Below, piece after piece: positions 1 to 43,497 of a DNA stretch of 64,000 nt. The position numbers were made by a program, and so were the translations under genes. Source of the stretch: Trypanosoma brucei (Eukaryota). Every line of letters begins with the position of its first letter. Positions within the stretch are counted from its first letter, which is position 1. Below the pieces are notes generated by a model. The model was not told where the DNA came from. It did no database searches and worked only from the letters and a program-made list of their open reading frames with translations. The DNA is taken from positions 1,472,001 through 1,536,000 of the forward strand of contig CP000067.1 of NCBI GenBank assembly GCA_000002445.1, read 5' to 3'.

Positions 1-3000
1 GAGGAATACGCCGCCGAACACGCTGAAATCCAAATGCGGAAGGGATTTTGTGACGACCCATACGGGAGGCAGAGAGAGGATACGGGAACAAATTACTACA
101 AAATAACCATCGAAGCAATGAGAAATACGGTGGGGCTTACCAAAGAGGGCGTGGTCAACCTTCAGGTGCAACATACAGGACGTGCTTGCGTGGTCTGACA
201 AGGCGGTGAAGGAACGTGAAATATATCCCTGACTTCCGACGAAACAAGAGGCAGCGATGGATATCACAAAGTTTCAAATAGGAGACCGAGGAGCATACAA
301 CGCTGACATGGCGACATGGCGAAGGTCGACGAGCAATGTAAGCGCGGAGCATGACTGAACATTTGCATGGCAGAAAGGCTTCGTCAGACACAGATGCAGA
401 AAGAAAATGATGCGGCAGAGGTTAAGGACCAAGTAAAACACGACACAGCATATGGGGGGAAATGTCAAGCAAGATCTGTTGTGTAATTTCTTTTTCAATA
501 AAATTGGAAGTTATGTTGTGTGGACGGTGAGTATGATATGCGAGGAGGGCAGTTGCGGAAAGGCTGAATGAAAATGACTGCTGTTGTGCTCCGTCGGGCA
601 AAGCCGCTGCTGGCTCAGAAGATATAGCAAAAGAATATCGTAAATTCATGAATAGCACATACAACCTCAAAGTATGCGGCAAGAATTCTGACGGCAAAGC
701 CGCCACCAGCACGGTAAAAGACTGCAACCCTCAAAACCATACCACAGTTATGATATGATTTCCCGCCCAATATGACAGTATACTTTTTGACATGCAGGAC
801 CTGAAGAAAAGGGAGATAATAGATGAGTAAAAGACAGTAAATCAAGAAGTTGAAGAAACAAAGGTGATAGTTGCTAGAAACACCTCACGAAAGCCGGAGA
901 GCCTTCGCGGATTCAGTATGTCCTACTTGATGCAGGGGGCGGTAATCTAACGCACACACGGTAGCACGATCCTGGAATTGTCATCGCCCCAGGAACAACT
1001 ACGGATGGAGGCACAAAGAGGTGAAACATAACAACGGAAAGCAGGCGGCGTTCAGGGTACTATTTGAAACTCCTCAGACAAGCCAGACTTACGTGGTGCA
1101 AAAACAAAAAATAGTGCACAGTCGGGAAGGGAAGTGAAGGGAGGTTCGCAACAACGGAAGAACAGAATACCGAGAGACGATCAGGCACTTCCTCCAATAC
1201 AAGAAACTCGTGCAATTCATCATGATATAGCTTCCAGCATTCAGTTCAGAAGGACAGTTAAGCCACAAAACAACGGCCACATAGACACAGGCGAGAAACA
1301 GTAAAACCCAGAGGGTGACAAAACATCTCGTTGCCAAGCGACCGAAACAAACCGAAATGTTGTGCCACTAAACGGGGATTAAGGTTCACTCGGCACTAAA
1401 GAATATATGCAGGGTAGCAGGAACCTGCATACGAATACACATGAAGGTAGGGGGAACGTTCTACTACTTGCTTGACAATTCTGTGGCCAAGCTGCTGAAG
1501 CTGTTCTCAAGGAACTCGGCACATGGAGAGTAAATGTACAGGAAGAGGGGGGAAAAGTTTCTCTGGAAGTGGTTGTCCGTTTCGGGAGTCAAACGTTGCT
1601 TAGGGTTCTGGATCTTTGAATATTCTTTAGAGATTATGACGGTCGCAAGCGTAGGTATGTTCTTCCGCTGTACCCTGGTCTAGTGGTCAAGTAGCGTCCG
1701 CGTCACAGATAGTACAGGGATCGGTCCCCGCGGCCGGCGAGTATTTAGCTTACACTAAGGATGAATCTGCCTCAACGTGGCGCTAGGGTTCAGGAACAGA
1801 AAAGAAATAAACTGGGAAGTCAAATGTTCCATCCAAACGGCGGCCGCAACACCGGATCTGACGCGCCCGCTCCGTGGGGAGAGAACTATTACTAAGTATT
1901 CCACGGTCCAGCGCCCTGCTCTGGTGTGGGAACCCTAATCCCTTATACAACTTCCGTCCGGGGAGGCAGATGGATATGGTAAACATGGTTCAAACGCAAC
2001 GTGGGAGGATCGAACGGGCGCCAAATGGAGACCGACCCCCTAGACACACGCACATACGGTCACCCAGCCGTGGGTGTCAATTCTCCAAGAAAAAAACAGG
2101 TGGTTTTAGTGGGTAGAAATGACAATCTCCAGAGCTGACCCCCACACTACCACGTTATCGTGGCGTGGTGTGCGTAAATGCATTTTCTCTTTGCCCTCGG
2201 GTGGACCGACTGCATGGTCCTGACGGTTGCGCGAGAGAAAATCAAATGAAAAAAATTGCTTTGTTCTTTGCGGTGCTTACCGATTTTTGGAGAAGTGCGG
2301 GTGTTAGGCCTGCCTGGCCATGTGTTTGTTCCGTTTAGAATGGTTGCATATTTTGGCGACGTTGAAGAAGCTGAACGTGTGGAGTTCTGTTGAGTTATAT
2401 TCTCGCGAGTATGGTGTACCAGACAAGTTACTTCGTTTGAGGCAGTCCTAGAGGCAGGGTGCGAGTTTGGAAGAAACAATTCTGGAGAGACTGAGGGTAG
2501 GGGACGTTGTTTTTGAAGGTAATTTCTTATCTATATAAGCCTTTTGTTCGCCGAGTATGTACCGGATAAGCTTCGTCAATCTTGAAGGTATTTAACAACC
2601 GCGGTGAGCGAGCTGTGGTTATTTAAGAGACTATTTTCGAAATCTGACGAAAGATGTGCCGTTTCCTTCGTCATTTCCTAAATCGATCTCATGCTGTAGC
2701 ACCCATTTCATACTTCAAATAAATTTTAGACGCCGCAGAGGAATATTATCGATTATTGAAGATCAAAATCAAAATTATGGAAGTCACTGTAGAAATATCA
2801 GATGTAAGACTACCGTGAAGGTGTGGGTGTTGGAGTGCCATCAATTTAATGCAGAAGGGGCAGAACGATGCAAAAAAAAAAATGTTAAGCGGTAGGCTGT
2901 AGTATGACTCAGCTTTAGAAGCGACGGTAAAGCAAAATAATCTGGGGAGTGCGTTAGATTAGAATGTTTTGCAAATACACGACACGTAGTGACATCAAAC

Positions 3001-5029
3001 TTTGCACTACCAAAGAAAAAAAAATAATAATAATAACAAATTAACGGCTTATCAAAACTAAGCCAAATAGCCTAGCAACAACAGAAGGATATGCCTTGTA
3101 GACAAAACTTCAAACTTTAGACGTATAACCATATTGATAAGACATATTCTGAAGCTCCGTTACTTCCAAACGTGCAAGGTGCACTGAAGGGTTTAAAAAT
3201 CAAAAGTATGCGCCGCCTGGAGATGGTGGCTGTCCTGCCGATACTACGTTAGTTGGAATCGTTGGCTCACTGTGAGGTGGAAAGCCAACCAGAAGAAGCA
3301 AGCGGCGAATATAACGCAAACACATATGAAGGAGTGATCGCAACTAAACCAGCCTACCCAGATAAAGAAGTCTCTGAATGATACAGCAAAGAATACAAGG
3401 TTTATCTTGATGGACTAACAAGACAAACTTACATGAGACGCAACAACTGCCCGAGGAAACAGGAAGCCTAGAGTTCAAATAACACAACGAATAACAAAGT
3501 GGGCAAAGTGAACTGGCATGCCTCAACCAACTGCAAAGCGTAACTCATAAGGACTTTTCGAACGTACAGCTAGAGCTCAGAAAGCATGCTGTACCTTATG
3601 GCGCACTAATGGAACCAGGCAGCAAGGCGACGAGGTACGGCAAAGGCCGTCACAAGCTGCATGCTCAAACAAGATAAACATAAGAGATGCCAAGGGGATG
3701 GGAAATTCTTGTAAAGTGGATATGTCTTAGGGAGCTGTTGGCATGATCTCAGGCACTAGAAGCCGAGTACAAAGGGACTTGCAATCACTGTGTGGTAATT
3801 ATAGTTTCTCTTGTTTCGCCGGCGGCGACCAACTAACGGACCTGAGCAAAAAGTGTGTCGATGGAGGAACGCAACTCAACCAAATCCCCATCGCCAACAT
3901 CAGGGAGAGAAGCAGAGACGCCTTTCCAACAAAGTTGGGTCACCAATCCACCGTGGCTCATGTACTGAGTGCATTCATTTCACCATTATGCTAAAATGTT
4001 TCCATCATCCATTTTATAAACTATCAGAATTTGGATAGAAAATATGCTAAAGTTTTAATGTTTTTTTTTTGGGGGGAGTTCGTGAAACTGTTGCATTCTA
4101 ATCGAGCTCTTTAAGATTTGCTTTCGTCTATTCTCCTCTATTTTCGCTATGGTCGCATGGTTTGAGCTCAAAAATAAGATTCGGAGAAAATTAAAAACTC
4201 GTCGAAAAACGAAATTTCGGTGATGATGAACATGGGTTTCTACGGTGGAGTCGACCTTTTAACATGTTGAACATATGAAAAACACAACCATTCAGAGTGA
4301 CAATTTACGTGTTTGAATTATTTCTATTGGATTAAAAGTTTAATATTCACTCTCATTTTCGTTTTTGAAGGGAAATGTTTTTAGACTAAATCGTTGAGAA
4401 CTGAGATTTTTTTTCTATTGCCACATACATAATACCTAACAGTTATGGCTTAATTGGATGCTAAGGTTATATTTGTGTAAAATGGAATAACTTAATTCCA
4501 AAAAAGTCACGATGTGACACTATATACTTGCATACAACCATGTCCCGGGGTGAATAATTGACGGCTTTCCACTAACACTGGTGGGGAAACAACATGACAG
4601 CGTGCAAGAAAAAAATTATAAAAGAGACAAACCGCCAGCTCTTATTTTTTTAAATGCGGGGACTAAGGGTGACATGCCATGTAGCGTTCGGAAAAGCAGG
4701 GGTGTTACACGTTGTGTCACGAAACTTTACTGAAAACTACAACGCAAATATCGCTAAGATATGATAACGGCAAGCTGATTTCAATTCTCGTAGCCTTGTA
4801 TGTCACAAACGTTGCTGACGTCCCGTAAACATAACATCTCCTCAGGGACCCGTGTATTAAGACATCTTTGGTTAAGTTGTTGAATTTGTTGTTAGGACAA
4901 CCGCCGTCTATTGCAGAACCCCAAATTACATCTATCACCTACAAATAAAAAGCCAAGTTCCAACCATCACCAACAACGAAGATAAAGTCACAAAAACAGC
5001 TCAACACATCCACGAAAGGAAAGGCACTA

Positions 5030-6559
5030 ATGGAAAGTCGATCCGATACCAAAGGAACGTCGCACATAGCTGTTGCAGCAGCCGTTCCAGTATTATTCAT
5101 GACGCTGATGAGGTGCGGCATGGCGCAAACAATAACGGAACCGTCTTCGGACAAAGTAACAAACCTCTGTACAGAGGCCAAGTATACAGCCCATCTGGCA
5201 GATCACATCGTAGCGGCGGCAGAAGAGCCGGAGCGCGAAATATCCGACATGCAAATTTATGCAGAGGCATGGAATCTCCTTGCCGCCAGCACAAACCAAA
5301 CAGACAAGCGTGCCGCGACATATGCCCTTGCTGCGTACATGTCCGCCGCGGCGGCAAAAGCAAAGCAGCTGCAAAACGGGAAATACAAAGCAGCAGTCTT
5401 GGCCGCTACCTACCTGCAAAGGAGATCAGCGCTGACACGAACATTGCAAGCTATGCGTGTAAAAGGCAAGACGGCTGTGGGACAGTTCACTAAAAAGCAG
5501 GGCGAAGAGGCATCATGTTCACACAAGGAAACGCCGACTTTAAGCGACGAAGGGGATTGCGGGCGACAGGATAATGCCATCAACCATCCTGAGTCAATTG
5601 CCATAGATTTAAGGACAGCGACTCACATCAAACTGGTACATGGCAGTAAGCTAAGACCACTGGAGTTAACGCACGAAGCTGATGTAAGAGAGACGACACC
5701 ATCGGAGCAAGCGCAAGTGAAAGCCACAGGTTGCAAGGCCGTGCTAAGAAGCGACTTCTATGTTACATTCATAGCATCAACTACAAAAAAGGAAGACAAA
5801 ACTGGAGTAACAGCTATTAAGATATTCGCGGGCGACGATGCAAATACAAGTTGTGCTGAGCTCAAAGACGCCACGAAGAAATCAGAAAAGGATAACGACC
5901 TACTGATCAACAAAATCTGCACCTACATAACAAAACCCGATCCGCAGATTATAACCATATCCAGTTTGACGCCAGCCATGTTAGCAAACACAACGGCAGT
6001 CCAAGTGGCGTTCAGAAGCTTCGTTCATGCAGCAACCGGTAAAGCGCCAAGCGACGCCGAGATTGAAATGCAACTTCAAAAACTTTACGGAGGGGACAAG
6101 CAACACTTCAAAAGAGACTTCGTGACAATTCTGACAACAAAGAATATGACATACCACACGGGCTCAGGATTTGTAACTGAAACATTCCTTGATGCAGCTA
6201 AAAACAACCACGCCCACAAGGTGCTGATCTATCTAAAAGGTCAAAGAGCGGCAGCACAGGCAAAACAACCAAGGACAAACGAGAGTGAAATCAACGGCCC
6301 GGTCTGCGGAGGTGAGGGCCAAGAGGAGTGCAAATTGGATGAAAAGAAAGACCCGGAGAAACCGAACGGAACTCAAATGCGGAAATGGCCTAAAGCACTC
6401 CAGTGGATGATCACACGACAAGGAGGAAATTGCAAAACAATACAGCAAGAAGATTGTAAAGAAGACTGTACATGGGATGAGGGAGCTTGTGACGGCGCAG
6501 TTGGCATTTCTGCTTCGATGAATATTTCTCTGTTCATGGCATTTTTGCTTCTAGCATAA
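5030..6559 (+). CDS. VSG-related / atypical VSG-like GPI-anchored surface glycoprotein, array copy 1 (type A), 509 aa
   Basis: Complete ORF. N-terminal hydrophobic signal (AVAAAVPVLFMTLMRCGMA). Alanine-rich heptad-like N-terminal region typical of the VSG A-type fold (NLCTEAKY..., AATYALAAYMSAAAAKAKQLQ...). Cys-rich C-terminal domain ending in a hydrophobic GPI-signal-like tail (GISASMNISLFMAFLLLA) that differs from canonical VSG C-termini. No 70-bp repeat upstream. Confidence 0.7.
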   Translation: MESRSDTKGTSHIAVAAAVPVLFMTLMRCGMAQTITEPSSDKVTNLCTEAKYTAHLADHIVAAAEEPEREISDMQIYAEAWNLLAASTNQTDKRAATYALAAYMSAAAAKAKQLQNGKYKAAVLAATYLQRRSALTRTLQAMRVKGKTAVGQFTKKQGEEASCSHKETPTLSDEGDCGRQDNAINHPESIAIDLRTATHIKLVHGSKLRPLELTHEADVRETTPSEQAQVKATGCKAVLRSDFYVTFIASTTKKEDKTGVTAIKIFAGDDANTSCAELKDATKKSEKDNDLLINKICTYITKPDPQIITISSLTPAMLANTTAVQVAFRSFVHAATGKAPSDAEIEMQLQKLYGGDKQHFKRDFVTILTTKNMTYHTGSGFVTETFLDAAKNNHAHKVLIYLKGQRAAAQAKQPRTNESEINGPVCGGEGQEECKLDEKKDPEKPNGTQMRKWPKALQWMITRQGGNCKTIQQEDCKEDCTWDEGACDGAVGISASMNISLFMAFLLLA

Positions 6560-7779
6560 AAACTTATTGGAAATACTTTATTGTAGCAAACATTAATTTT
6601 TTTCTGGAAATATCTTAATGTAGTGGAATATGCATTTTTATGGAAAGATCTTATTATACGAAACCGTATCTTTGTTGAATTATCTTGGATAAATTTACAT
6701 TCATCTTGGAAATATTTTATACAATTCTTAAATGTGCGTTTGTATTTCAACGCTTTTTGCAAACATGTGAAGACTTTGAGAGATCTTTTTTGTTGTTGTA
6801 CAAATTTGATGTTTGAATGTAAAGTGATATGTTGATGGAGTGTCAAAAGTGGGTGCCATTAGGATTTTTACTATTATGGTTTATTCAATTAATTTTATGT
6901 TTACCTTTGAAAATGTAAATATATGCAAATCTTCTCTAGTGTTGTGGCCGGGGAGTATAATGTAGTATGGTAACGGTTTACGAATGAGAAATGAGTGCTA
7001 TTCTGAAATTTTCTGTTTCGGTTTATTTGGTGTATCGTATGGATGTTAGTCAAGGTTATAAAAGTAATGGTAAGAGTGGTTGGGGTGAGGATTAGGATGT
7101 TGGTATATTTGAATAACAAGGTCTTCCAAAGGAGGAAGAGAGATAGACAAGGCAGTGAAGGGCTGCAGAGGTGTTGTGGCATGCATGGAAATGATATAGA
7201 TCTCTAAGGGAGTATCAGGTATGATTTTACTCGGGAAGGGGTTGCTGCTCATACTTGTGATTATATATTTCCTGAAGCGGTCAAATGTTTCACAACTTCC
7301 ATTAGAATAAAGTTTAGGAGAAGCAATAGGATGAGGGAAGCCCCCGCTGAATTGTTTGGCGGATATACAGTTTGATGAGTGGAAGGTTCGTTGTAGAAGC
7401 ACGCGTGCACGTCTCGCCCAATTGGTGAGAGAGCAGTAATGGCCGGATGCATTTGCCGTGAGTAACAACCCCAACAATGGATACAAAGGAGTTATTGTTC
7501 ATCATCGAGGTGTGACAACAGTAGTGGTGCATATATTTGTCGGCCCCTCGGATATGGAAAAGGGATCAAACGGTGCCGCTGGCATTGGAGGTTTTGTTGG
7601 TAATTCCTTAGAAATATCTTGCTGAAATTTGTTGAAGTTATTGAGACAACTATCTTTTCTATGTTACCCTACTATTTCATGTATTGCTTACTGGTAACAA
7701 CATAAAGTCCAATTTTTATCAACAGGGAAGTCAAGGACACCAAGGCAACGCAGCAACGTGGAAAAAGCTGGAGGAACTA

Positions 7780-9306
7780 ATGGAAAGTCGACCCGATACC
7801 AAAGGAATGTGCCACGCGACAGTGGCAGCAACTGTTCCAGTATTATTCATGACGCTGATGAGGTGCGGCATGGCGCAAACAGTAACGGAACCGTCTTCGG
7901 ACAAAGTAACAAACCTCTGTACAGAGGCCAAGTATACGGAATATTTGGCGAGTCGAATCGTAGCGGTAGCAGAGAGGCAGGAGCGCGAAATATCCGACAT
8001 GCAAATTTATTCAGAGGCATGGAATCTCCTTGCCGCCAGCACAAACCAAACAGACAAGCGTGCCGCGACATATGCCCTTGCTACGTACATGTCCACCGCG
8101 GCGGAAACAGCAAGGCGGGCACACGCTGGAAAATACAAAGCAGCAGTGGCAACTGCGAAGTTGCTACACAGGAGGTCGGCGCTAACGCGTACGTTGCTAA
8201 CGATGAGAATCCGGGGAAAGACAATAGTTGGAATAAGCAAAGAGGCCAACGGCATAGGAATATGCCCTGGTGAAGCAACACCAACATTAAGCGGCGACAG
8301 TAGTTGCGCGCACCGAACCAATGACAGCAACCAACCAGAAGGTATTGCTGTGAACTTGAAGGCAGCGACGCACATAAAATTGCTAAATAGCAGTGCACTA
8401 AGACCTCGGGGGTTAACCCATCTAGTTGAGATAAAAGAAACGAAGTGGCCAGCAAGCAGAGAAGCATTAGTCGAGAGGTGCGGGGGCTTGTTGGGAGGTG
8501 ACCATTATGTTAAATTCGAAGCATCAACCACAGGAGAAGACAGCAAAATCATAGTAGAGCCGATTAAGATATTTGAGGGTGACGATGCGGAGAAAAACTG
8601 CGCTGTCGTACAGAAAGAATCTATGAAATCAGAAAAGGACAATGATCTACTGATCAACAAAATATGCACCTACATAACAATACTCGACCCGCAGATTATA
8701 ACCATATCCAGTTTGACGCCTGCCATGTTAGCAAACACGAGCACAGTCCAAATGGCGTTCAAAAGCTTCGTTCATGCAGCAACCGGTAAAGCACCTAGCG
8801 ACGGCGAAATCGAGTTGCAACTTAAGAGCCTTTACGGTGGGGACAAGCAAAACTTCACCAGAGACTTCGTAAAAATTCTGTGGACGAAGAACGTGACATA
8901 CCACACGGGCGCAGGATTCAAAACTGAGACGCTCCTTGATGCGGTTAGAAACAAAAACGCACAGAGGGCTCTAATCTATCTGGAAGATCAAAGACCAGCA
9001 GAGGAGTCAAAACAGACACAAACGGACGAGAGTGAAATCAACGGCCCGGTCTGCGGAGGTGAGGGCCAAGAGGAGTGCAAATTGGATGAAAAGAAAGACC
9101 CGGAGAAACCGAACGGAACTCAAATGCGGAAATGGCCTAAAGCACTCCAGTGGATGATCACACGACAAGGAGGAAATTGCAAAACAATACAGCAAGAAGA
9201 TTGTAAAGAAGACTGTACATGGGATGAGGGAGCTTGTGACGGCGCAGTTGGCATTTCTGCTTCGATGAATATTTCTCTGTTCATGGCATTTTTGCTTCTA
9301 GCATAA
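7780..9306 (+). CDS. VSG-related / atypical VSG-like surface glycoprotein, array copy 2 (type B). Likely start is the MESRPDTKG ATG at 7780; the in-frame upstream ATG at 7684 gives the 540-aa track ORF.
   Basis: Paralog of copy 1 with the same signal peptide and C-terminal 120 aa and a divergent central region. Start chosen by alignment with copies 1 and 4. Confidence 0.65.
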   Translation: MESRPDTKGMCHATVAATVPVLFMTLMRCGMAQTVTEPSSDKVTNLCTEAKYTEYLASRIVAVAERQEREISDMQIYSEAWNLLAASTNQTDKRAATYALATYMSTAAETARRAHAGKYKAAVATAKLLHRRSALTRTLLTMRIRGKTIVGISKEANGIGICPGEATPTLSGDSSCAHRTNDSNQPEGIAVNLKAATHIKLLNSSALRPRGLTHLVEIKETKWPASREALVERCGGLLGGDHYVKFEASTTGEDSKIIVEPIKIFEGDDAEKNCAVVQKESMKSEKDNDLLINKICTYITILDPQIITISSLTPAMLANTSTVQMAFKSFVHAATGKAPSDGEIELQLKSLYGGDKQNFTRDFVKILWTKNVTYHTGAGFKTETLLDAVRNKNAQRALIYLEDQRPAEESKQTQTDESEINGPVCGGEGQEECKLDEKKDPEKPNGTQMRKWPKALQWMITRQGGNCKTIQQEDCKEDCTWDEGACDGAVGISASMNISLFMAFLLLA

Positions 9307-10526
9307 AAACTTATTGGAAATACTTTATTGTAGCAAACATTAATTTTTTTCTGGAAATATCTTAATGTAGTGGAATATGCATTTTTATGGAAAGATCTTA
9401 TTATACGAAACCGTATCTTTGTTGAATTATCTTGGATAAATTTACATTCATCTTGGAAATATTTTATACAATTCTTAAATGTGCGTTTGTATTTCAACGC
9501 TTTTTGCAAACATGTGGAAATTTTGAGAGATCTTTTTTGTTGTTGTACAAATTTGATGTTTGAATGTAAAGTGATATGTTGATGGAGTGTCAAAAGTGGG
9601 TGCCATTAGGATTTTTACTATTATGGTTTATTCAATTAATTTTATGTTTACCTTTGAAAATGTAAATATATGCAAATCTTCTCTAGTGTTGTGGCCGGGG
9701 AGTATAATGTAGTATGGTAACGGTTTACGAATGAGAAATGAGTGCTATTCTGAAATTTTCTGTTTCGGTTTATTTGGTGTATCGTATGGATGTTAGTCAA
9801 GGTTATAAAAGTAATGGTAAGAGTGGTTGGGGTGAGGATTAGGATGTTGGTATATTTGAATAACAAGGTCTTCCAAAGGAGGAAGAGAGATAGACAAGGC
9901 AGTGAAGGGCTGCAGAGGTGTTGTGGCATGCATGGAAATGATATAGATCTCTAAGGGAGTATCAGGTATGATTTTACTCGGGAAGGGGTTGCTGCTCATA
10001 CTTGTGATTATATATTTCCTGAAGCGGTCAAATGTTTCACAACTTCCATTAGAATAAAGTTTAGGAGAAGCAATAGGATGAGGGAAGCCCCCGCTGAATT
10101 GTTTGGCGGATATACAGTTTGATGAGTGGAAGGTTCGTTGTAGAAGCACGCGTGCACGTCTCGCCCAATTGGTGAGAGAGCAGTAATGGCCGGATGCATT
10201 TGCCGTGAGTAACAACCCCAACAATGGATACAAAGGAGTTATTGTTCATCATCGAGGTGTGACAACAGTAGTGGTGCATATATTTGTCGGCCCCTCGGAT
10301 ATGGAAAAGGGATCAAACGGTGCCGCTGGCATTGGAGGTTTTGTTGGTAATTCCTTAGAAATATCTTGCTGAAATTTGTTGAAGTTATTGAGACAACTAT
10401 CTTTTCTATGTTACCCTACTATTTCATGTATTGCTTACTGGTAACAACATAAAGTCCAATTTTTATCAACAGGGAAGTCAAGGACACCAAGGCAACGCAG
10501 CAACGTGGAAAAAGCTGGAGGAACTA

Positions 10527-12053
10527 ATGGAAAGTCGACCCGATACCAAAGGAATGTGCCACGCGACAGTGGCAGCAACTGTTCCAGTATTATTCATGAC
10601 GCTGATGAGGTGCGGCATGGCGCAAACAGTAACGGAACCGTCTTCGGACAAAGTAACAAACCTCTGTACAGAGGCCAAGTATACGGAATATTTGGCGAGT
10701 CGAATCGTAGCGGTAGCAGAGAGGCAGGAGCGCGAAATATCCGACATGCAAATTTATTCAGAGGCATGGAATCTCCTTGCCGCCAGCACAAACCAAACAG
10801 ACAAGCGTGCCGCGACATATGCCCTTGCTACGTACATGTCCACCGCGGCGGAAACAGCAAGGCGGGCACACGCTGGGAAATACAAAGCAGCAGTGGCAAC
10901 TGCGAAGTTGCTACACAGGAGGTCGGCGCTAACGCGTACGTTGCTAACGATGAGAATCCGGGGAAAGACAATAGTTGGAATAAGCAAAGAGGCCAACGGC
11001 ATAGGAATATGCCCTGGTGAAGCAACACCAACATTAAGCGGCGACAGTAGTTGCGCGCACCGAACCAATGACAGCAACCAACCAGAAGGTATTGCTGTGA
11101 ACTTGAAGGCAGCGACGCACATAAAATTGCTAAATAGCAGTGCACTAAGACCTCGGGGGTTAACCCATCTAGTTGAGATAAAAGAAACGAAGTGGCCAGC
11201 AAGCAGAGAAGCATTAGTCGAGAGGTGCGGGGGCTTGTTGGGAGGTGACCATTATGTTAAATTCGAAGCATCAACCACAGGAGAAGACAGCAAAATCATA
11301 GTAGAGCCGATTAAGATATTTGAGGGTGACGATGCGGAGAAAAACTGCGCTGTCGTACAGAAAGAATCTATGAAATCAGAAAAGGACAATGATCTACTGA
11401 TCAACAAAATATGCACCTACATAACAATACTCGACCCGCAGATTATAACCATATCCAGTTTGACGCCTGCCATGTTAGCAAACACGAGCACAGTCCAAAT
11501 GGCGTTCAAAAGCTTCGTTCATGCAGCAACCGGTAAAGCACCTAGCGACGGCGAAATCGAGTTGCAACTTAAGAGCCTTTACGGTGGGGACAAGCAAAAC
11601 TTCACCAGAGACTTCGTAAAAATTCTGTGGACGAAGAACGTGACATACCACACGGGCGCAGGATTCAAAACTGAGACGCTCCTTGATGCGGTTAGAAACA
11701 AAAACGCACAGAGGGCTCTAATCTATCTGGAAGATCAAAGACCAGCAGAGGAGTCAAAACAGACACAAACGGACGAGAGTGAAATCAACGGCCCGGTCTG
11801 CGGAGGTGAGGGCCAAGAGGAGTGCAAATTGGATGAAAAGAAAGACCCGGAGAAACCGAACGGAACTCAAATGCGGAAATGGCCTAAAGCACTCCAGTGG
11901 ATGATCACACGACAAGGAGGAAATTGCAAAACAATACAGCAAGAAGATTGTAAAGAAGACTGTACATGGGATGAGGGAGCTTGTGACGGCGCAGTTGGCA
12001 TTTCTGCTTCGATGAATATTTCTCTGTTCATGGCATTTTTGCTTCTAGCATAA
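10527..12053 (+). CDS. VSG-related / atypical VSG-like surface glycoprotein, array copy 3 (type B). Protein identical to copy 2; upstream in-frame ATG at 10431.
   Basis: ORF translation is identical to copy 2. The only nucleotide difference seen in the CDS is a synonymous GGA/GGG at 8127 vs 10874. Confidence 0.65.
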   Translation: MESRPDTKGMCHATVAATVPVLFMTLMRCGMAQTVTEPSSDKVTNLCTEAKYTEYLASRIVAVAERQEREISDMQIYSEAWNLLAASTNQTDKRAATYALATYMSTAAETARRAHAGKYKAAVATAKLLHRRSALTRTLLTMRIRGKTIVGISKEANGIGICPGEATPTLSGDSSCAHRTNDSNQPEGIAVNLKAATHIKLLNSSALRPRGLTHLVEIKETKWPASREALVERCGGLLGGDHYVKFEASTTGEDSKIIVEPIKIFEGDDAEKNCAVVQKESMKSEKDNDLLINKICTYITILDPQIITISSLTPAMLANTSTVQMAFKSFVHAATGKAPSDGEIELQLKSLYGGDKQNFTRDFVKILWTKNVTYHTGAGFKTETLLDAVRNKNAQRALIYLEDQRPAEESKQTQTDESEINGPVCGGEGQEECKLDEKKDPEKPNGTQMRKWPKALQWMITRQGGNCKTIQQEDCKEDCTWDEGACDGAVGISASMNISLFMAFLLLA

Positions 12054-13238
12054 AAACTTATTGGAAATACTTTATTGTAGCAAACATTAATTTTTTTCTG
12101 GAAATATCTTAATGTAGTGGAATATGCATTTTTATGGAAAGATCTTATTATACGAAACCGTATCTTTGTTGAATTATCTTGGATAAATTTACATTCATCT
12201 TGGAAATATTTTATACAATTCTTAAATGTGCGTTTGTATTTCAACGCTTTTTGCAAACATGTGGAAATTTTGAGAGATCTTTTTTGTTGTTGTACAAATT
12301 TGATGTTTGAATGTAAAGTGATATGTTGATGGAGTGTCAAAAGTGGGTGCCATTAGGATTTTTACTATTATGGTTTATTCAATTAATTTTATGTTTACCT
12401 TTGAAAATGTAAATATATGCAAATCTTCTCCGGTGTTGTGGCCGGGGAGTATAATGTAGTATGGTAACGGTTTACGAATGAGAAATGAGTGCTATTCTGA
12501 AATTTTCTGTTTCGGTTTATTTGGTGTATCGTATGGATGTTAGTCAAGGTTATAAAAGTAATGGTAAGAGTGGTTGGAGTGACGATTAGGATGTTGGTAC
12601 ATTTGAATAACAAGGTCTTCCAAGGGAGGAAGAGATATGTATAAAGTACTGAAGGGCTGCAGAGGTGTTGTGTTAGGCATGATTGTGCACGGGAAGGAGT
12701 TGCTGCCGAAGCTTCTGATATACATGTGTTTCCAGAAACGATCAAATGCTGCGGAGCTTACGTGGGAAGAAAGTTTCGGAAGAGTTATGGGATGAGGGAA
12801 ATTCCCACTGCATTGTTTGAGCAGATTCACAACATGATAAGTGGAAGGTTGGTTGGAGAAGTGCGCAGGTACGCCACACCCAGTTGGCAAGAGATTGCAA
12901 TAGTCGGGTGCATGCCGGGAGTGATGACCCCACTGATAGTCAGGTCGCTAATAACGCTGAGGTTTGGAAAAAGCACACCTGAATTGATTTATCGGTGTAT
13001 CGAAGATCGAAAACATGATTAAGGCTCCCCAGTTACTGCATTCCCTCAAGGGGTTGCCGTTAAAAATATTTTTGTGCAAACTGTTTAAGTTATTATTGGG
13101 ACAACCGCTCTCTATTGCGGAACCACAAATTTCATCTATGACATACCTATAAATAAAAAGCCAAGTTCCAATCATCATCAACAACGAAGATAAAGGCACA
13201 AAGGCAACGAAACACATTACACGGAGGGAAAGGAGCCG

Positions 13239-14768
13239 ATGCAAGTTCAACGCACTACCAAAGAAGTGTTGCACAAAGCTGTTGCAGCAGCCGTGCCCGT
13301 GTTATTCATGACGCTGATGAGGTGCGGCATGGCGCAAACAGTAACGGAACCGTCTTCGGACAAAGTAACAAACCTCTGTACAGAGGCCAAGTATACAGCC
13401 CATCTGGCAGATCACATCGTAGCGGCGGCAGAAGAGCCGGAGCGCGAAATATCCGACATGCAAATTTATGCAGAGGCATGGAATCTCCTTGCAGCCAGCA
13501 CAAACCAAACAGACAAGCGTGCCGCGACATATGCCCTTGCCACGTACATGTCCACTGCGGCGGCAAAAGCAAAGCAGCTGCAAAACGGGAAATACAAAGC
13601 AGCAGTCTTGGCCGCTACCTACCTGCAAAGGAGATCAGCGCTGACACGAACATTGCAAGCTATGCGTGTAAAGGGACAGTCAGGAGCGGGACAAGTCACT
13701 AACCGACAAGGCGTCATCTCATCATGTTCACACAAGGAAACACCGACGTTAAGCGACGAAGGGGATTGCGGGCGACAAGGCAGTGATGCCAACCATCCAG
13801 AATCAATTGCCGTAAATTTAAGGACAGCGACTCACCTCAAACTGTTAGACAGCAGCAGGCTAAGACCGCTAGCGTTAAATCACTTAGCCGAAGTAGAAGG
13901 AACAGCGCCACCAGCAAAAACGGAAGTACAAGCCGAAGGCTGCAAGGCTGTGATAAGCATTGGCTATTATGCTAAATTCACAGCATCGACAAAAGAAAGT
14001 GACGACAACAGTGAAGTCAAAGCCATTAAGATATTCGCGGGTGACAATGCAAGTACAAATTGCGCTCTTCTGCACAACGCCGAAAGGAAATCAGAAAAGG
14101 ATAACGACCTACTGATCAACAAAATATGCAACTACATAAACAAACCTGATCCTCAGATAATAACCATATCCAATTTGACGCCTGCCATGTTAGCAAACAC
14201 GAGCACAGTCCAAATGGCGTTCAAAAGCTTCGTTCATGCAGCAACCGGTAAAGCACCTAGCGACGGCGAAATCGAAAACCAGCTTAAGAGCCTTTACGGA
14301 GGGGATGAGGTGACATTTACCAATGACTTCATAAAAATTCTGTGGACGAAGAACGTGACGTACCACACTGGCTCAGGATTCGTAACTGAGACATTTCTTG
14401 ATGCAGCTAAAAACGAAAACGCGCACAAGGTGCTCATCTATCTAAAAGGTCAAAGAGCGGCAGCACAGGCAAAACAACCAAGGACAAACGAGAGTGAAAT
14501 CAACGGCCCGGTCTGCGGAGGTGAGGGCCAAGAGGAGTGCAAATTGGATGAAAAGAAAGACCCGGAGAAACCGAACGGAACTCAAATGCGGAAATGGCCT
14601 AAAGCACTCCAGTGGATGATCACACGACAAGGAGGAAATTGCAAAACAATACAGCAAGAAGATTGTAAAGAAGACTGTACATGGGATGAGGGAGCTTGTG
14701 ACGGCGCAGTTGGCATTTCTGCTTCGATGAATATTTCTCTGTTCATGGCATTTTTGCTTCTAGCATAA
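13239..14768 (+). CDS. VSG-related / atypical VSG-like surface glycoprotein, array copy 4 (type A with type-B segments, mosaic), 509 aa
   Basis: Complete ORF. The N-terminal 140 aa and the upstream region match copy 1. One internal block (TPAMLANTSTVQMAFKSFVHAATGKAPSDGEIE) matches copies 2/3 rather than copy 1. The C-terminal 120 aa is shared by all copies. Confidence 0.7.
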   Translation: MQVQRTTKEVLHKAVAAAVPVLFMTLMRCGMAQTVTEPSSDKVTNLCTEAKYTAHLADHIVAAAEEPEREISDMQIYAEAWNLLAASTNQTDKRAATYALATYMSTAAAKAKQLQNGKYKAAVLAATYLQRRSALTRTLQAMRVKGQSGAGQVTNRQGVISSCSHKETPTLSDEGDCGRQGSDANHPESIAVNLRTATHLKLLDSSRLRPLALNHLAEVEGTAPPAKTEVQAEGCKAVISIGYYAKFTASTKESDDNSEVKAIKIFAGDNASTNCALLHNAERKSEKDNDLLINKICNYINKPDPQIITISNLTPAMLANTSTVQMAFKSFVHAATGKAPSDGEIENQLKSLYGGDEVTFTNDFIKILWTKNVTYHTGSGFVTETFLDAAKNENAHKVLIYLKGQRAAAQAKQPRTNESEINGPVCGGEGQEECKLDEKKDPEKPNGTQMRKWPKALQWMITRQGGNCKTIQQEDCKEDCTWDEGACDGAVGISASMNISLFMAFLLLA

Positions 14769-15549
14769 AAACTTATTGGAAATACTTTATTGTAGCAAAC
14801 ATTAATTTTTTTCTGGAAATATCTTAATGTAGTGGAATATGCATTTTTATGGAAAGATCTTATTATACGAAACCGTATCTTTGTTGAATTATCTTGGATA
14901 AATTTACATTCATCTTGGAAATATTTTATACAATTCTTAAATGTGCGTTTGTATTTCAACGCTTTTTGCAAACATGTGGAAATTTTGAGAGATCTTTTTT
15001 GTTGTTGTACAAATTTGATGTTTGAATGTAAAGTGATATGTTGGTGGAATGTCGAAAATGGTTGCTATTTAGAATATTTTTGCTATTATGGTTTATTCGA
15101 AGAAATTTATGTTTACCTTTGAAGATGTGAAAATGTTTAAATGTTTTCAAATGTTTTTGACTTGTGGGTATAACGTGGTAAAGTGATAGGGGTGTGAAAA
15201 ATGAGTGTGATTATGAAAACTTGCCATTTTGGTTTATTTTTTTGTAATAGATATTAAGAGTAGTTTAAGGTTATGATATTAATAGCAGTATAGTAATAGT
15301 GTGTGTGCCATATAAGTGCACATACTAACATTATGGTAAGAGTGGTGGTGCAGAACGACTGGAGACAAAATAGAAGCAGTTAAGCTGATGCCAAGGGCAC
15401 AGTGGGAGTTAGCAAGTGAGTGGGAGAGGAAGAGGACGAGGAGGATATTATTAAAACAAAAGCAGAAACACAGGTAGATGGAGAGAAAAGGTAATGAAAT
15501 ATGCGCAGTTTTTTTCATTGTACATTTATCCTGCTCGTGCTGCGGTAGA

Positions 15550-17905
15550 CTAGCTACTGCCCCTGTGGCTCTGCAAATTAGCAGGGGATGTTTAGCGCAA
15601 CCGCAATTTCATCTTCACTTGATCCAATGATACCTTGAAACTGATTGAGTATTCTGTAGATTTAGCTTCACGGGTACGTTTACGCATGGCTCTTGCAGTG
15701 CCAACCCCTAAAGACTTCGCTGCCGCAGAGTGGTGGTCAGTGGAATCCAACTCCGTTGGCGATCGGTGCCTCTTCACGGCTCAAGTGGGCCCAGATTTTT
15801 TCTCTAAGATTGGGGGGGGGGAGATGGTCTCTCTAGCTTGAAGAGCTCCTTCAGGAAGCTGGCTAGTTGTGTGCTGAAGAACACTTCCCCGTTCTTCAGG
15901 GTTTCTAGACCATGCTTTTCCCTTTAGCACTTGCAAGCTTGGGCATTCAAAGAGGTGCGCCGCAGCCTCGTTACACTCAACCTTCAGCAAGTAATGCTCA
16001 TTCTCCTTCCTCAGTTGGCCCTGCTTCGCCTGTATGTGCATCGTCAGGAACTTCTTTAGTGTGCAATTCATTGGGCAGTATGGGCACTGGAGTGATCTTT
16101 TCAGGAGAGGTGTCACCGCTACCGTGCCGTCCTTTAGTTTTCGTTTCACTGTCGTGGCGTGCGCGTATGCCAAACCAGTGAGCACCACTGCTTGTACACA
16201 CTGCTGTTTCCACCGCACACATTGTCCATTCCCTCTTTGCCTTCTGTGTGGCGGACTACCCGAAGACGCTTAGGCGGTCTTTCCCCATTGTCCCTTCCTG
16301 CTGACTCCAATGACTCACTCACCTCACTCTGTGCCTGAGCCTCTGCTCTCACTACCTTTCGCTTCGGCTTCACGCGTGGCTGAGGACGCAATGACTCGTC
16401 GTGACCCAGGTGCTTGGTCGGTATGCGTTGCGGTAACCATCTGTAATGATACTGCTTTCTACAAATGGAACACGCCACTGTAACTGACTGCTTCGCCACG
16501 TCCGAGTCTTCAGAGTTCGTGTTCGAGGTTGGTTCGTACTTGTGCCTGGTGGGCCATGTCTTGCTTTTGAGGACGCGTTGGCACCTGTAGCATACAAATT
16601 CCCTTTTATCCTGCTCCTCCTGCTCTGCCTCGCCATCACTACCGGACACGTCTTGTGGCTTCATAGCGCCGCGCGTTAACTGCTTTTCCGTGTGCTTCTG
16701 CAGCCACGCGTATACAGTGTACTTAATTGCGCACCAGCGGCACTTGAACGCTTTGCCATCATCGGCCCCATAATCCTCCCTAGCCCTTTTCGGACGCTCC
16801 TCCACGGCTGCCACTATATCTGAAAGTTGCTGTGCCATATGCTTCACGAGCAGCCCACGCCGCTCAAAGACATCGCACACATGTGACATCTGTACCCATT
16901 CTTATGCGTCTGCGCCGCACGCTTAGCTTTGTTGGTCAGAGCTAATGCACAATCCCTCTCCAGACCATGAATCTTCAGTAGGTGCACCACGCCAGCCTGT
17001 TGCCGCGCGCAAACCACGTTGCACAATGAGCAAATGATCGGGTCGATCAGCCTGGTTGCTATCCCAGGATCTGGTGCGTTCGCATTGTCCGCTGCTGACT
17101 CCGCCTCCGGGCGCTCTTCTGCTGTGTCGCTGCGTGGTTCCTGTGTGTCGCACCGTATGCATCCAAGCTGGTCCGTCTTGCGTGTGAGCGCCCTGTGGAG
17201 CCGTCCGAAATGCTTCGAGGTGCCTGTTCCGAACTGCGCCAGCACCGACTCGCCCAGACGCTCCAGCCTTGTGTGCTTCGGTGCGGCCCGAACGTAGTCG
17301 AGTAGCGCACTCCGATGCGTACGCTGCATGCGGCCCTTCTTGAAGGCCTTGTACATCGCATTCCAGACCTGTCACCACACACCCGTCGCTATGTCAGTGA
17401 TCCACGCGGGATACAACTACGGCTTTGCGTTTCCCTGCTCAGCTGCCTTGTCAGCTGCTTCATTTCGTGATGTTGGTAGCCAGCAACGCTAAAGCAAGCC
17501 GCCTCTCCAGGCGTCATTCTTGTCTCGCTCAACAGACAAAAGGCGATCCGCTCATCAACAAGGGTTTTGTGGAGTGCTAATCTCTTTCCTTGAGTTAGCC
17601 CGGCGCAGTTCCACTGCATCCCGCACAACGACGGGCCGGGATTCTCTTCCACATCACCGGACAGCAGCATCTTAGTGCGGATGATACTGCTGATGGCACG
17701 CTGGCACGTGCCCAGGGACCGACAAATGAAAAACGGTGTCCCAGCAAGACGCTGCTGATCCCTGTGCTGTATGATGCCGTAGCCGGAGCACAGCAGTGTT
17801 CCCCATGAGAAGAACGCTGCTGGCTCTTGGCTTCCCCCGATGATACGGGGTACTTGACCCTGGCACCACGTTGAGGTGGCCGGCATCTCTAGGGGTACTA
17901 TTACT
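15550..17905 (-). mobile_element. ingi/L1Tc-clade non-LTR retrotransposon remnant, internally deleted (5' region with 2A peptide and start of the AP-endonuclease domain joined to C-terminal C2H2 zinc-finger region; the RT domain is absent)
   Basis: Minus-strand ORF 17389-17886 encodes ...RTKMLLSGDVEENPGPSLCGMQWNCAGL..., a 2A-like motif followed by an APE-like start, as described for L1Tc/ingi. The 5' end (rc of 17,815-17,880) contains ...cctcaacgtggtgccagggtcaagtaccccgtatcatcgggggaagccaagagccagcagcg, consistent with the conserved 5' signature of ingi/RIME-type elements. ORFs 16844-17356, 16146-16889 and 15781-16218 carry repeated C-x2-C...H-x3-H motifs (FKCRWCAIKYTVYAWLQKH, FVCYRCQRVLKSKTWPTRH, CPYCPMNCTLKKFLTMH). 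Frameshifts occur between the ORFs. Exact ends are uncertain. Confidence 0.65.
17632..17655 (-). other. 2A-like self-processing peptide motif D-V-E-E-N-P-G-P within the retroelement ORF
   Basis: The reverse complement of 17632-17655 is gatgtggaagagaatcccggcccg = DVEENPGP, an exact match to the canonical 2A C-terminal consensus D(V/I)ExNPGP. Confidence 0.8.
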
Positions 17906-18217
17906 AGTTAACATATTTATGACAGTTTAATAAGATGATTCATTTTCATACTCTATTTGCCCATTATTTTGAAAAAATGTGCCACTTTCATAACAAAATG
18001 TTATACGTAAAATTCTAAATAATTTCTGTAGTTTATGCATTTTAATTAAATGCTTTTCAAATATATCATATTTTACCAAATATAGATAACTCTCTGTTAA
18101 TGGCAAATTTTGTGAAATAGAGCAAAATTCCTTAAAATAGAAATCCCACAAAATCAGCAGCGATTATAGCAAAATTTTATTTACAAAGAAAATTGAATTT
18201 TTGCAAGCATTATTTTC

Positions 18218-20494: not shown

Positions 20495-20570
20495 AGAATA
20501 ATATTAGTATACGCACACTCACAACACATTCTTATTATTATTGTTATTATTACCATCATCATAAAACAAT
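20495..20570 (-). repeat. 70-bp-repeat-like element upstream of the VSG pseudogene at 18218-19567
   Basis: The minus strand reads (ATA/ATG-type triplet run)...gaatgtgttgtgagtgtgcgtatactaatatt, matching the GTGTTGTGAGTGTGTATA core plus (TRR)n purine triplets of the VSG 70-bp repeat. Confidence 0.6.
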
Positions 20571-43495: not shown

Positions 43496-43497
43496 AA

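What the first reader, a model, noticed from the sequence alone, without database searches (positions are those of the whole stretch)
4880..15150. Four-copy tandem array of a non-canonical VSG-fold GPI surface protein with A-B-B-A organisation and homogenised 3' ends
Four ~509-aa genes on the strand opposite to the VSG array share a signal peptide, an alanine-rich coiled-coil-like N-terminal region and an identical 120-aa Cys-rich C-terminus (…CGGEGQEECKLDEKK…NCKTIQQEDCKEDCTWDEGACDG…ISLFMAFLLLA). That C-terminus is unlike canonical VSG C-terminal domains. No 70-bp repeats precede them. Copies 1 and 4 (type A) share upstream sequence and N-termini. Copies 2 and 3 (type B) are identical to each other. 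The last ~120 codons plus ~1.2 kb of downstream intergenic sequence are near-identical in all four, consistent with concerted evolution or gene conversion across part of the unit. Such arrays at the boundary between core and VSG array fit the 'VSG-related' (VR) class. A four-copy mosaic array could be a distinct, possibly stage-specific surface coat component.
Basis: partly seen in the sequence, partly recalled or inferred. Interest (0 to 1): 0.7.

Follow-up and report, generated by a model that had tools for sequence, protein, structure and literature searches.

The report
Known atypical VSG four-gene cluster
The four tandem genes are real, but they are the already annotated and published "atypical VSG" cluster Tb927.4.5400-5430 at the right end of Trypanosoma brucei TREU927 chromosome 4, so the finding is ordinary.

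Summary
The window is T. b. brucei TREU927 chromosome 4. The four + strand ORFs (509, 508, 508 and 509 aa) exist exactly as described. They are GenBank XP_844686-XP_844689, annotated "VSG, atypical, putative".

Jensen et al. 2009 already described this cluster:
- It is tandem and lies on the strand opposite the subtelomeric VSG array.
- It lies downstream of a Pol II start site.
- Its mRNA is present at similar levels in all life stages.

Dakovic et al. 2023 already placed these proteins in VSG structural class A1a (VSGsur-like). My AlphaFold/Foldseek run agrees.

Details that need correcting:
- The identical C-terminus is 92 aa, not about 120.
- The homogenised 3' flank shared by all four copies is 210 nt, not 1.2 kb.
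- The extreme N-terminus of copy 1 is B-like, so A-B-B-A is a simplification of a mosaic.
- The C-terminus does pass Pfam's VSG C-terminal-domain model. It has lost two cysteines and carries a non-canonical GPI signal.

What I added:
- The genes lack both 70-bp repeats and the VSG 3'UTR 16-mer.
- dN/dS is about 0.35-0.4.
- The NTD lineages pre-date strain splits, while the 3' end was homogenised inside TREU927.
- T. equiperdum and T. b. gambiense hold one copy between the same flanks.

The best reading is VR-like, constitutively and weakly expressed VSG paralogues, not a new coat.

The parts
5030..6559 (+). Copy 1 (509 aa). XP_844686 / UniProt Q580P7, inferred to be Tb927.4.5400. Class A1a VSG NTD plus a degenerate CTD.
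   Evidence: ORF. 100% match to the TREU927 protein. PDB phmmer hit to VSGsur. AF2 model and Foldseek search.
7780..9306 (+). Copy 2 (508 aa, from ATG 7780). XP_844687/8. B-lineage NTD.
   Evidence: Pfam PF10659 scores 27.8 bits.
10527..12053 (+). Copy 3 (508 aa). Its protein is identical to that of copy 2, with one synonymous difference at 10877.
13239..14768 (+). Copy 4 (509 aa). XP_844689 / UniProt Q580P4, inferred to be Tb927.4.5430. It has an A-lineage NTD and the ancestral-type N-terminus MQVQRTTKEV.
   Evidence: Q580P4 is listed as class A1a in Dakovic 2023.
6279..12577 (+). Near-perfect tandem repeat of a 2747-bp unit, about 2.3 units long. It runs from the 3' end of copy 1 through copies 2 and 3 into spacer 3. 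It is the footprint of a recent unequal exchange.
   Evidence: Spacing of 2747 bp. Identity map. Identical tracts.
6279..6769 (+). Homogenised tract identical in all four units: the last 281 nt of the CDS (92 codons plus stop) and 210 nt of 3' flank. Counterparts lie at 9026-9516, 11773-12263 and 14488-14978.
   Evidence: dS = 0 in this tract.
14488..15043 (+). 3' conversion tract of copy 4, 556 nt identical to copies 2 and 3. Similarity then decays and is lost by about 15260, which marks the end of the array.
4820..5029 (+). Proximal upstream segment of copy 1. It is homologous to the roughly 210 nt upstream of copy 4 and to the upstream sequence of the single-copy orthologues. It marks the start of the array.
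   Evidence: Alignment A3. Synteny.
15781..17886 (-). Degenerate ingi/DIRE-like retroelement remnant (2A-like DVEENPGP, weak C2H2). It separates the + strand cluster from the minus-strand VSG array and is conserved at the same place in T. equiperdum and DAL972.
   Evidence: ORFs. Weak zf-C2H2 hit. RVT_1 (weak) in L001. Collinearity up to window position 17468.
20514..20526 (-). First 70-bp-repeat core motif in the window. It is context only, showing where the canonical minus-strand VSG cassettes begin.
   Evidence: VSG 3'UTR 16-mers also occur only on the minus strand at or beyond 20735.

Best explanation
These are the annotated genes Tb927.4.5400-5430 of T. b. brucei TREU927. They are four tandem paralogues of a small, strain-conserved VSG subfamily.

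Each protein has these parts:
- A signal peptide.
- An ordinary class A1a (VSGsur-like) VSG N-terminal domain.
- A degenerate VSG C-terminal domain. A 15-aa deletion removes two of the four cysteines of its first subdomain.
- A family-specific hydrophobic tail, ...CDGAVGISASMNISLFMAFLLLA. It is unlike either canonical VSG GPI signal but is compatible with GPI addition.

Shown. The genes lack the two cis elements that make a VSG a mobile, highly expressed cassette: the upstream 70-bp repeats and the 3'UTR 16-mer. They face the subtelomeric VSG array from the opposite strand.

From the literature. They lie in a Pol II transcription unit and give similar, modest mRNA levels in bloodstream and procyclic forms, and low levels in tsetse stages.

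Inferred mechanism. They behave like VSG-related (VR) or 'VSG island' genes. A VSG was captured at the core/subtelomere boundary. It is now outside the antigenic-variation machinery and makes a low-abundance, non-switching, probably GPI-anchored VSG-fold glycoprotein kept under purifying selection.

Array history, shown in part. Two old NTD lineages are shared with other strains: A (copies 1 and 4) and B (copies 2 and 3). Unequal exchange within the shared 3' CDS/3' flank duplicated the B unit very recently. Gene conversion homogenised the last 281 nt of the CDS plus 210 nt of 3' flank in all four copies inside the TREU927 lineage. All copies therefore carry the same CTD and the same proximal 3' flank, which presumably holds at least the start of the 3'UTR.

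The confidence given is for the whole statement. The identity and anatomy are near certain (about 0.97). The functional reading (VR-like, non-switching, protein made) is about 0.55-0.6.
For: Identity:
- 100% protein match to TREU927 'VSG, atypical, putative' on a 1,590,432-bp contig.
- Jensen 2009 describes the same four-gene cluster, its strand, its position, a Pol II start site upstream, and expression in all stages.

Fold:
- phmmer hits VSGsur over the full NTD, E = 6e-6.
- The AF2 model has NTD pLDDT mostly above 85.
- Top Foldseek PDB hits are VSGsur (E = 1.7e-13, target TM 0.71-0.74), VSG397, VSG558 and VSG13.
- Q580P4/Q580P5 and Lister 427 VSG485 are listed as class A1a in Dakovic 2023.

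CTD:
- PF10659 scores 32.9 bits against a cut-off of 21.4.
- The deletion is visible relative to VSG 1125.137 and 1125.5101.
- The tail is unlike the canonical tails of minus-strand VSGs in the same window, yet is equally hydrophobic.

Missing cassette elements:
- The 70-bp core has 7 hits, all on the minus strand at or beyond 20514.
- The 16-mer has 9 hits, all on the minus strand at or beyond 20735.

Selection and conversion:
- dN/dS is 0.33-0.43.
- dS is 0 in the CTD, 0.04 for copies 1 versus 4 over residues 33-140, and 0.5-1.6 over residues 141-290.
- The NTDs of copies 1 and 4 group with T. equiperdum and 1125.1646. The NTDs of copies 2 and 3 group with 427 VSG-438 and 1125.137.
- The CTD is 100% identical within TREU927 but at most 90% identical to any other strain.

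Synteny:
- There is a single copy between the same flanks in T. equiperdum and T. b. gambiense DAL972.

Expression and protein:
- RNA-seq values in tsetse-derived samples are about 1-9, and a signal peptide is predicted.
- Two peptides assigned to Tb927.4.5410 were found in plasma of T. b. rhodesiense patients.
Against: - No direct evidence here or in the papers read shows that the protein is GPI-anchored, reaches the surface, or has any function.
- Transcript levels are low, so read-through cannot be excluded.
- The DAL972 orthologue is interrupted by an internal duplication or insertion of about 430 nt, so the gene may be dispensable.
- dN/dS below 1 is also expected for intact archive VSGs and does not separate this reading from the archive-donor reading.
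- Clear polypyrimidine/AG splice-acceptor contexts were found only for copies 2 and 3.
- The plasma proteomics rests on 2 peptides and 5.3% coverage.
Confidence: 0.6

Rival explanations
1. They are ordinary members of the silent VSG archive. Their role would be to donate N-terminal-domain segments to mosaic VSGs by segmental gene conversion. The odd CTD and GPI signal would not matter, because the 3' end is normally supplied by the expression-site VSG.
For: - The NTD is a standard class A1a fold.
- The nearest relatives outside the family are normal VSGs at about 31% identity with canonical tails.
- Family members were catalogued in the Lister 427 and EATRO1125 VSG repertoires.
- The genes lie next to a VSG array.
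- Their ORFs are intact and dN/dS is below 1.
Against: - They have no 70-bp repeats and no 3'UTR 16-mer, whereas the neighbouring array genes have both.
- They are on the opposite strand, in a Pol II unit, with mRNA in procyclic forms as well.
- The locus position and flanks are conserved across T. equiperdum, T. b. gambiense and T. b. brucei. [quoted passage not shown]
- The family keeps 60-80% identity across strains. By contrast, its nearest relatives outside the family, themselves VSGs, are only 19-34% identical to it.
Confidence: 0.2
2. They are non-functional relics. A VSG was stranded at the boundary and amplified by unequal crossing-over. The transcripts would be Pol II read-through noise, and no protein of consequence would be made.
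For: - Expression is low (values about 1-9).
- The CTD is degenerate and has lost cysteines.
- The DAL972 copy is disrupted.
- Copy number varies from 1 to 4 between genomes.
- Splice-acceptor contexts are weak for copies 1 and 4.
Against: - All four ORFs, 508-509 codons long, are intact.
- dN/dS of 0.33-0.43 holds in every region, including comparison with the T. equiperdum orthologue.
- The family-specific CTD and tail are conserved across five genomes.
- Peptides have been reported from patient plasma.
Confidence: 0.15
3. The genes would be a distinct, possibly stage-specific surface coat component encoded by a novel non-canonical VSG-fold family.
For: - The proteins have a signal peptide and a GPI-like tail.
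- The array is multi-copy.
- The shared 3' flank could confer common regulation.
Against: - Published arrays show similar mRNA in all stages examined.
- RNA-seq values are very low in midgut, proventriculus and salivary-gland samples. This is far from coat-protein levels.
- The fold and the CTD both belong to known VSG classes.
- The family is already annotated.
Confidence: 0.03

Closest known systems
Atypical VSGs of T. brucei TREU927 (VSGdb / GeneDB category of Marcello & Barry 2007), specifically Tb927.4.5400-5430
   Same: These are the same genes. The protein sequences are identical. The same four-gene tandem cluster is described in Jensen 2009.
   Different: Nothing differs. This report only adds detail on conversion tracts, the missing 16-mer, the CTD deletion and synteny.
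Class A1a VSG N-terminal domains (VSGsur, VSG397; Zeelen 2021, Dakovic 2023)
   Same: The predicted NTD superposes best on VSGsur and VSG397. A full-length NTD sequence alignment to VSGsur is obtained. The same proteins are listed as A1a in the literature.
   Different: VSGsur is an expressed coat VSG with a canonical CTD and GPI signal. These genes have a degenerate CTD, an odd tail and no VSG cassette elements.
VSG-related (VR) genes
   Same: They share these traits with VR genes: no 70-bp repeats, a location outside the array orientation next to a strand switch, Pol II-type expression in bloodstream and procyclic forms, and conservation of position between subspecies.
   Different: Curators classify them as atypical VSGs, not VR. 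The NTD is not structurally divergent, and its nearest relatives are ordinary array VSGs.
Canonical subtelomeric array VSG cassettes (as on the minus strand of this window)
   Same: They share the signal peptide, the class A NTD and a PF10659 CTD.
   Different: The array genes have 70-bp repeats upstream, the 3'UTR 16-mer, and canonical GPI signals (...SNSFVINKAPLWLAVLL.. or ...SSSFLLNKKFALSMVSAAFVALLF). The four + strand genes have none of these.

Membership tests
Canonical VSG gene cassette | N-terminal signal peptide | tested here: met
   A hydrophobic h-region (AVAAAVPVLFMTLM) is followed by ..GMAQT. SignalP values (NN D 0.59, HMM 0.84-0.95) are recorded for Tb927.4.5400 and Tb927.4.5430 in the Savage 2016 supplement.
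Canonical VSG gene cassette | Class A or B VSG N-terminal domain fold | tested here: met
   phmmer to VSGsur gives E = 6e-6 over residues 13-435. The AF2 NTD has pLDDT mostly above 85. Foldseek top hits are VSGsur, VSG397, VSG558 and VSG13. Pfam PF00913 itself is sub-threshold at 10.9-15.7 bits against a cut-off of 22.1. The same holds for bona fide relatives.
Canonical VSG gene cassette | VSG C-terminal domain (Pfam PF10659) | tested here: met
   The shared 92 aa score 32.9 bits against a cut-off of 21.4. Copies 2/3 score 27.8 bits and copy 4 scores 26.5 bits.
Canonical VSG gene cassette | CTD subdomains with four cysteines each | tested here: not met
   The pattern is 2 + 4 cysteines. A 15-aa deletion relative to VSG 1125.137 and 1125.5101 removes two Cys of subdomain 1.
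Canonical VSG gene cassette | Canonical VSG GPI signal peptide (the two conserved types) | tested here: not met
   The tail GAVGISASMNISLFMAFLLLA differs from ..SNSFVINKAPLWLAVLLL. and ..SSSFLLNKKFALSMVSAAFVALLF of array VSGs in the same window. Its hydrophobicity is comparable. No GPI predictor was available.
Canonical VSG gene cassette | 70-bp repeats upstream | tested here: not met
   The core motif TGTTGTGAGTGTG (up to 1 mismatch) gives 7 hits, all on the minus strand at or beyond 20514, and none in 1-20000. Only the core 13-mer was searched.
Canonical VSG gene cassette | Conserved 3'UTR 16-mer TGATATATTTTAACAC | tested here: not met
   There are 9 hits (up to 2 mismatches), all on the minus strand at or beyond 20735, and none downstream of the four genes.
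Canonical VSG gene cassette | Can serve as the coat when placed in a telomeric expression site | not testable with these tools
   This needs VSG-seq or expression-site data. No paper naming VSG-438, VSG-485 or the EATRO1125 homologues was found.
VSG-related (VR) genes | No 70-bp repeats | tested here: met
VSG-related (VR) genes | Located outside telomeric expression sites and subtelomeric arrays, typically at strand-switch regions | tested here: inconclusive
   The genes lie on the opposite strand, converging on the array across an ingi remnant. Jensen 2009 places them just downstream of a strand-switch region with a Pol II start site. They nevertheless directly abut the array.
VSG-related (VR) genes | [quoted passage not shown] | tested here: not met
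   They are annotated 'VSG, atypical' and counted among atypical VSGs, not VRs, by Jensen 2009. The NTD is a standard A1a fold, and the nearest relatives are ordinary VSGs at 31% identity.
VSG-related (VR) genes | Transcripts present outside the bloodstream stage | tested here: met
   This comes from the literature only. Expression is similar in all stages, and the genes are detected in tsetse-stage RNA-seq.
Atypical VSG (VSGdb category) | Complete ORF whose product lacks some element expected for VSG folding or post-translational modification | tested here: met
   The ORFs are intact. The CTD cysteine count and the GPI signal are non-consensus. The category is as defined, and the genes are annotated as such.
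VSG class A1a (VSGsur-like NTD) | NTD superposes best on VSGsur-type structures rather than on VSG1/VSG2 (A2) or VSG3 (B) | tested here: met
   Foldseek gives VSGsur E = 1.7e-13 and VSG397 E = 7e-10, against VSG2 and MITat1.1 at E of 0.04 or worse. No class B structure is among the significant hits. Published listing.

The most novel reading that the evidence does not exclude
The family would be a positionally fixed, non-variant VSGsur-class glycoprotein with a dedicated function. One example would be ligand binding in the flagellar pocket or endosomes, as happened when other VSG-fold proteins (SRA, TgsGP, the transferrin receptor) were recruited to non-coat roles. On this reading its private CTD and GPI signal direct it away from the coat, and TREU927 has amplified it four-fold. 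The evidence does not exclude this: intact ORFs, dN/dS of about 0.35-0.4, a CTD and tail conserved across five genomes, a conserved locus, constitutive Pol II expression, and peptides in patient plasma.
Probability: 0.15. Interest if true: 0.5.

Novelty: already known. Interest (0 to 1): 0.12.

Why it matters
It matters little as a discovery. The genes are annotated, the cluster and its constitutive expression were published in 2009, and the fold class was published in 2023.

The residual value is descriptive. The locus is a clean, small example of a VSG that has lost both cassette elements (70-bp repeats and the 3'UTR 16-mer) yet stays intact under purifying selection. Old NTD lineages sit beside a 3' end homogenised within a single strain.

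If someone wished to ask what 'atypical' or 'VR-like' VSGs do, this locus would be a tractable target. It is conserved, has 1 to 4 copies, and carries a private C-terminus.

Tried and rejected
- First AF2 run. The 13-sequence family-only alignment gave pLDDT 30 and was unusable. I repeated the run with 28 sequences including distant VSGs.
- Frameshift hypothesis. I tested whether the odd linker (..ETQMRKWPKALQWM..) and tail come from a frameshifted canonical CTD. The other two frames are full of stops and give no canonical-looking peptide, so this was rejected.
- Other families (ESAG2-, BARP- or other surface families). Pfam at E up to 1 gave only VSG models plus spurious weak hits to Tubulin_C and DUF305.
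- Positive selection on the variable middle region (residues 141-290). dN/dS is 0.28-0.46 there and dS is high. The region is simply older or unconverted, not positively selected by this crude test.
- RNA genes that might mark the strand-switch or start region. No tRNA and no Rfam family were found in the window.
- Literature. Marcello & Barry 2007 is not held. No paper names VSG-438, VSG-485 or the EATRO1125 homologues. Other 'atypical VSG' mentions do not concern this locus.
- An apparent partial duplication in the T. equiperdum locus was an artefact of mine. The file L001.fa holds both L001 and L002. Once separated, T. equiperdum is cleanly single-copy and the internal duplication belongs to DAL972.
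- My initial label 'class A2' for VSGsur was wrong. The published scheme calls it A1a.

Full report
**What is in the sequence**

The region holds four + strand ORFs: 5030-6559 (509 aa), 7780-9306 (508 aa from the in-frame ATG), 10527-12053 (508 aa) and 13239-14768 (509 aa). Start-to-start spacing is 2750, 2747 and 2712 bp.

From about 20.5 kb to the end of the window, the minus strand carries a canonical VSG array. Its ORFs hit Pfam Trypan_glycop (A-type), VSG_B and Trypan_glycop_C strongly. Between the two clusters lies a degenerate ingi/DIRE-like retroelement on the minus strand, at about 15.8-17.9 kb, with a 2A-like DVEENPGP motif. The basic observation is real.

**Identity**

Copy 1 matches a T. 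b. brucei TREU927 protein at 100% on a 1,590,432-bp contig. The four products are XP_844686, XP_844687/XP_844688 (one sequence) and XP_844689, with UniProt Q580P7 to Q580P4. [quoted passage not shown]

Jensen et al. 2009 (PMC2771046) describe the cluster explicitly. [quoted passage not shown] The cluster is immediately downstream of a strand-switch region with a Pol II initiation site. Expression is similar in all life-cycle stages examined. The feature is therefore annotated and published. The mapping of individual locus tags to individual copies is my inference from accession order.

**Corrections to the description**

- All four proteins share an identical C-terminal stretch of 92 aa (281 nt), not about 120. 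Copies 1 and 4 share 115 aa.
- The tract identical in all four units is 491 nt (6279-6769, 9026-9516, 11773-12263, 14488-14978). That is 281 nt of CDS plus 210 nt of 3' flank.
- Spacers 1 and 2 are identical throughout, at 1.22 kb each. Spacer 3 follows them for about 525 nt and then diverges. The flank after copy 4 is identical to those after copies 2 and 3 for about 275 nt (to 15043), and similarity fades by about 15260.
- Copies 2 and 3 differ by a single third-position base in the CDS (8130 / 10877).
- A near-perfect 2747-bp repeat runs from 6279 to 12577, about 2.3 units.
- The A-B-B-A label holds for residues 33-140, where copies 1 and 4 are 97% identical and each is about 80% identical to copies 2/3.
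- The label fails at the extreme 5' end. The start-codon context and first 13 residues of copy 1 are of the copy 2/3 type. Copy 4 keeps the MQVQRTTKEV form seen in T. equiperdum and T. b. gambiense.
- One segment of copy 4 (copy-1 coordinates 5956-6056) is 99% identical to copies 2/3. The genes are mosaics.

**Protein family**

- *N-terminal domain, sequence.* phmmer against PDB sequences finds only VSGsur, aligned over residues 13-435, E = 6e-6.
- *N-terminal domain, wider search.* An exhaustive HMMER scan of 1.84 billion representatives finds 26 proteins. Eight of the nine I looked up are named VSGs, one of them only through an archive accession shared with a named VSG (P0016), and the ninth, P0036 (1792 aa), carries no name. 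The nearest one outside the family is 31% identical (VSG 1125.4099) and has a canonical C-terminal tail.
- *N-terminal domain, structure.* An AlphaFold2 model from a 28-sequence alignment has mean pLDDT 70.7, with the NTD mostly above 85. Its best Foldseek matches in the PDB are VSGsur (E = 1.7e-13, target TM 0.71-0.74), VSG397, VSG558 and VSG13. These lie well ahead of VSG1, VSG2 and ILTat1.24.
- *N-terminal domain, published class.* In the scheme of Dakovic et al. 2023 this is class A1a. That paper already lists UniProt Q580P4 and Q580P5 from TREU927 and Lister 427 VSG485, a family member, among A1a models aligned to VSGsur.
- *C-terminal domain.* The shared C-terminal 92 aa pass Pfam's VSG CTD model at 32.9 bits against a cut-off of 21.4.
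- *What is aberrant in the CTD.* Relative to two EATRO1125 relatives, the family has a 15-aa deletion that removes two of the four cysteines of the first CTD subdomain. The tail GAVGISASMNISLFMAFLLLA resembles neither canonical VSG GPI signal present in the array VSGs of the same window. It is equally hydrophobic and is preceded by small residues. It is not a frameshift product.

These defects are what the 'atypical' category denotes.

**Cis elements**

The 70-bp-repeat core motif occurs seven times, against 0.16 expected. The 3'UTR 16-mer occurs nine times, against 0.07 expected. All hits are on the minus strand within the array. None lies in or around the four + strand genes. The genes thus lack the upstream element associated with VSG gene conversion. 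They also lack the 3'UTR element associated with high VSG mRNA levels. The roles of both elements are stated from general knowledge. This is the strongest sequence-level reason to think the four genes stand outside the antigenic-variation system, as VR genes and 'VSG islands' do.

**Evolution**

- Nei-Gojobori dN/dS is 0.33-0.43 overall and below 0.5 in every mature-protein region, including comparison with the T. equiperdum orthologue.
- dS is strongly heterogeneous. It is 0 in the CTD, 0.04 between copies 1 and 4 over residues 33-140, and 0.5-1.6 over residues 141-290. This is the signature of patchy gene conversion over older divergence, not of positive selection.
- Region-wise identities show two NTD lineages that cross strain boundaries. 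Copies 1 and 4 group with T. equiperdum and EATRO1125 1125.1646. Copies 2/3 group with Lister 427 VSG-438 and 1125.137.
- The CTD is 100% identical among the TREU927 copies but at most 90% identical to any other genome.
- TREU927-specific substitutions (PNGTQ, ITRQ, NIS) are shared by all four copies. The 3' end was therefore homogenised within the TREU927 lineage.
- T. equiperdum and T. b. gambiense DAL972 each carry a single copy. It has the upstream flank of copy 1 and the downstream flank of copy 4, including the retroelement remnant.
- The DAL972 copy is interrupted by an internal duplication or insertion of about 430 nt.
- The simplest history is an A-B-A' array. The B unit was duplicated by unequal exchange within the shared 3' segment, and short conversion tracts followed.

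**Function**

Nothing here or in the papers read shows what the protein does.

- Microarrays show similar mRNA in bloodstream and procyclic forms.
- RNA-seq in tsetse-derived samples gives low values, about 1-9.
- Two peptides were assigned to Tb927.4.5410 in plasma from T. b. rhodesiense patients.

I commit to the VR-like reading: a stranded VSG, Pol II-transcribed, constitutive, of low abundance, probably GPI-anchored, and maintained by purifying selection. Its array architecture is a by-product of unequal exchange.

The main rivals are that the genes act only as archive donors for mosaic VSGs, or that they are relics on their way to decay.

**Verdict**

The feature is already annotated, described and structurally classified, so interest is low.

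Noticed in passing
window 43496-43580, with 43731-43746 and 43810-45360 (minus strand): An interstitial telomere repeat, (AACCCT) x 13.8 on the + strand (TTAGGG on the minus strand), lies directly 3' of an intact B-type VSG and its perfect 3'UTR 16-mer. It looks like a formerly telomeric VSG now embedded in the array.
   Followed up: no
window about 15781-17886 (minus strand); L001 about 12.5-14.2 kb; L002 about 12.9-14.6 kb: A degenerate ingi/DIRE-like retroelement remnant, with a 2A-like DVEENPGP motif in ORF 17389-17886, sits at the convergence point between the + strand cluster and the VSG array. It is conserved at the same place in T. equiperdum and T. b. gambiense.
   Followed up: partly
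L002 (T. b. gambiense DAL972 chromosome 4 end) 10001-11964: The single gambiense orthologue is split into 364-aa and 237/282-aa ORFs by an internal duplication or insertion of about 430 nt (junction near 11148/11250). It is either a pseudogene or an assembly problem.
   Followed up: partly
window 20813-22327 (minus strand): An intact 504-aa VSG with a near-canonical GPI tail (..SNSFVINKAPLLLAFSLALLNF) gets no Pfam hit at all at E up to 0.01, neither NTD nor CTD model. Seven relatives of the four + strand genes likewise give no hit to the A-type model PF00913, and the four genes themselves are sub-threshold. PF00913 appears to miss this part of class A, including A1a NTDs.
   Followed up: no
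window 6373-6846, 9120-9593, 11867-12340 (minus strand): A 157-aa antisense ORF recurs three times inside the homogenised 3' CDS/3' flank. It is most likely a mechanical consequence of the repeat, not a gene.
   Followed up: no
window 1-5000: About 5 kb upstream of copy 1 holds no ORF longer than 110 aa, no tRNA and no Rfam match. It is 90% conserved with T. equiperdum and T. b. gambiense. This is where Jensen 2009 places a Pol II start site.
   Followed up: partly
window 31311-31384 and 49025-49083: Two microsatellites lie within the VSG array spacers: (TCTATA) x 12 and (TAT) x 19.
   Followed up: no
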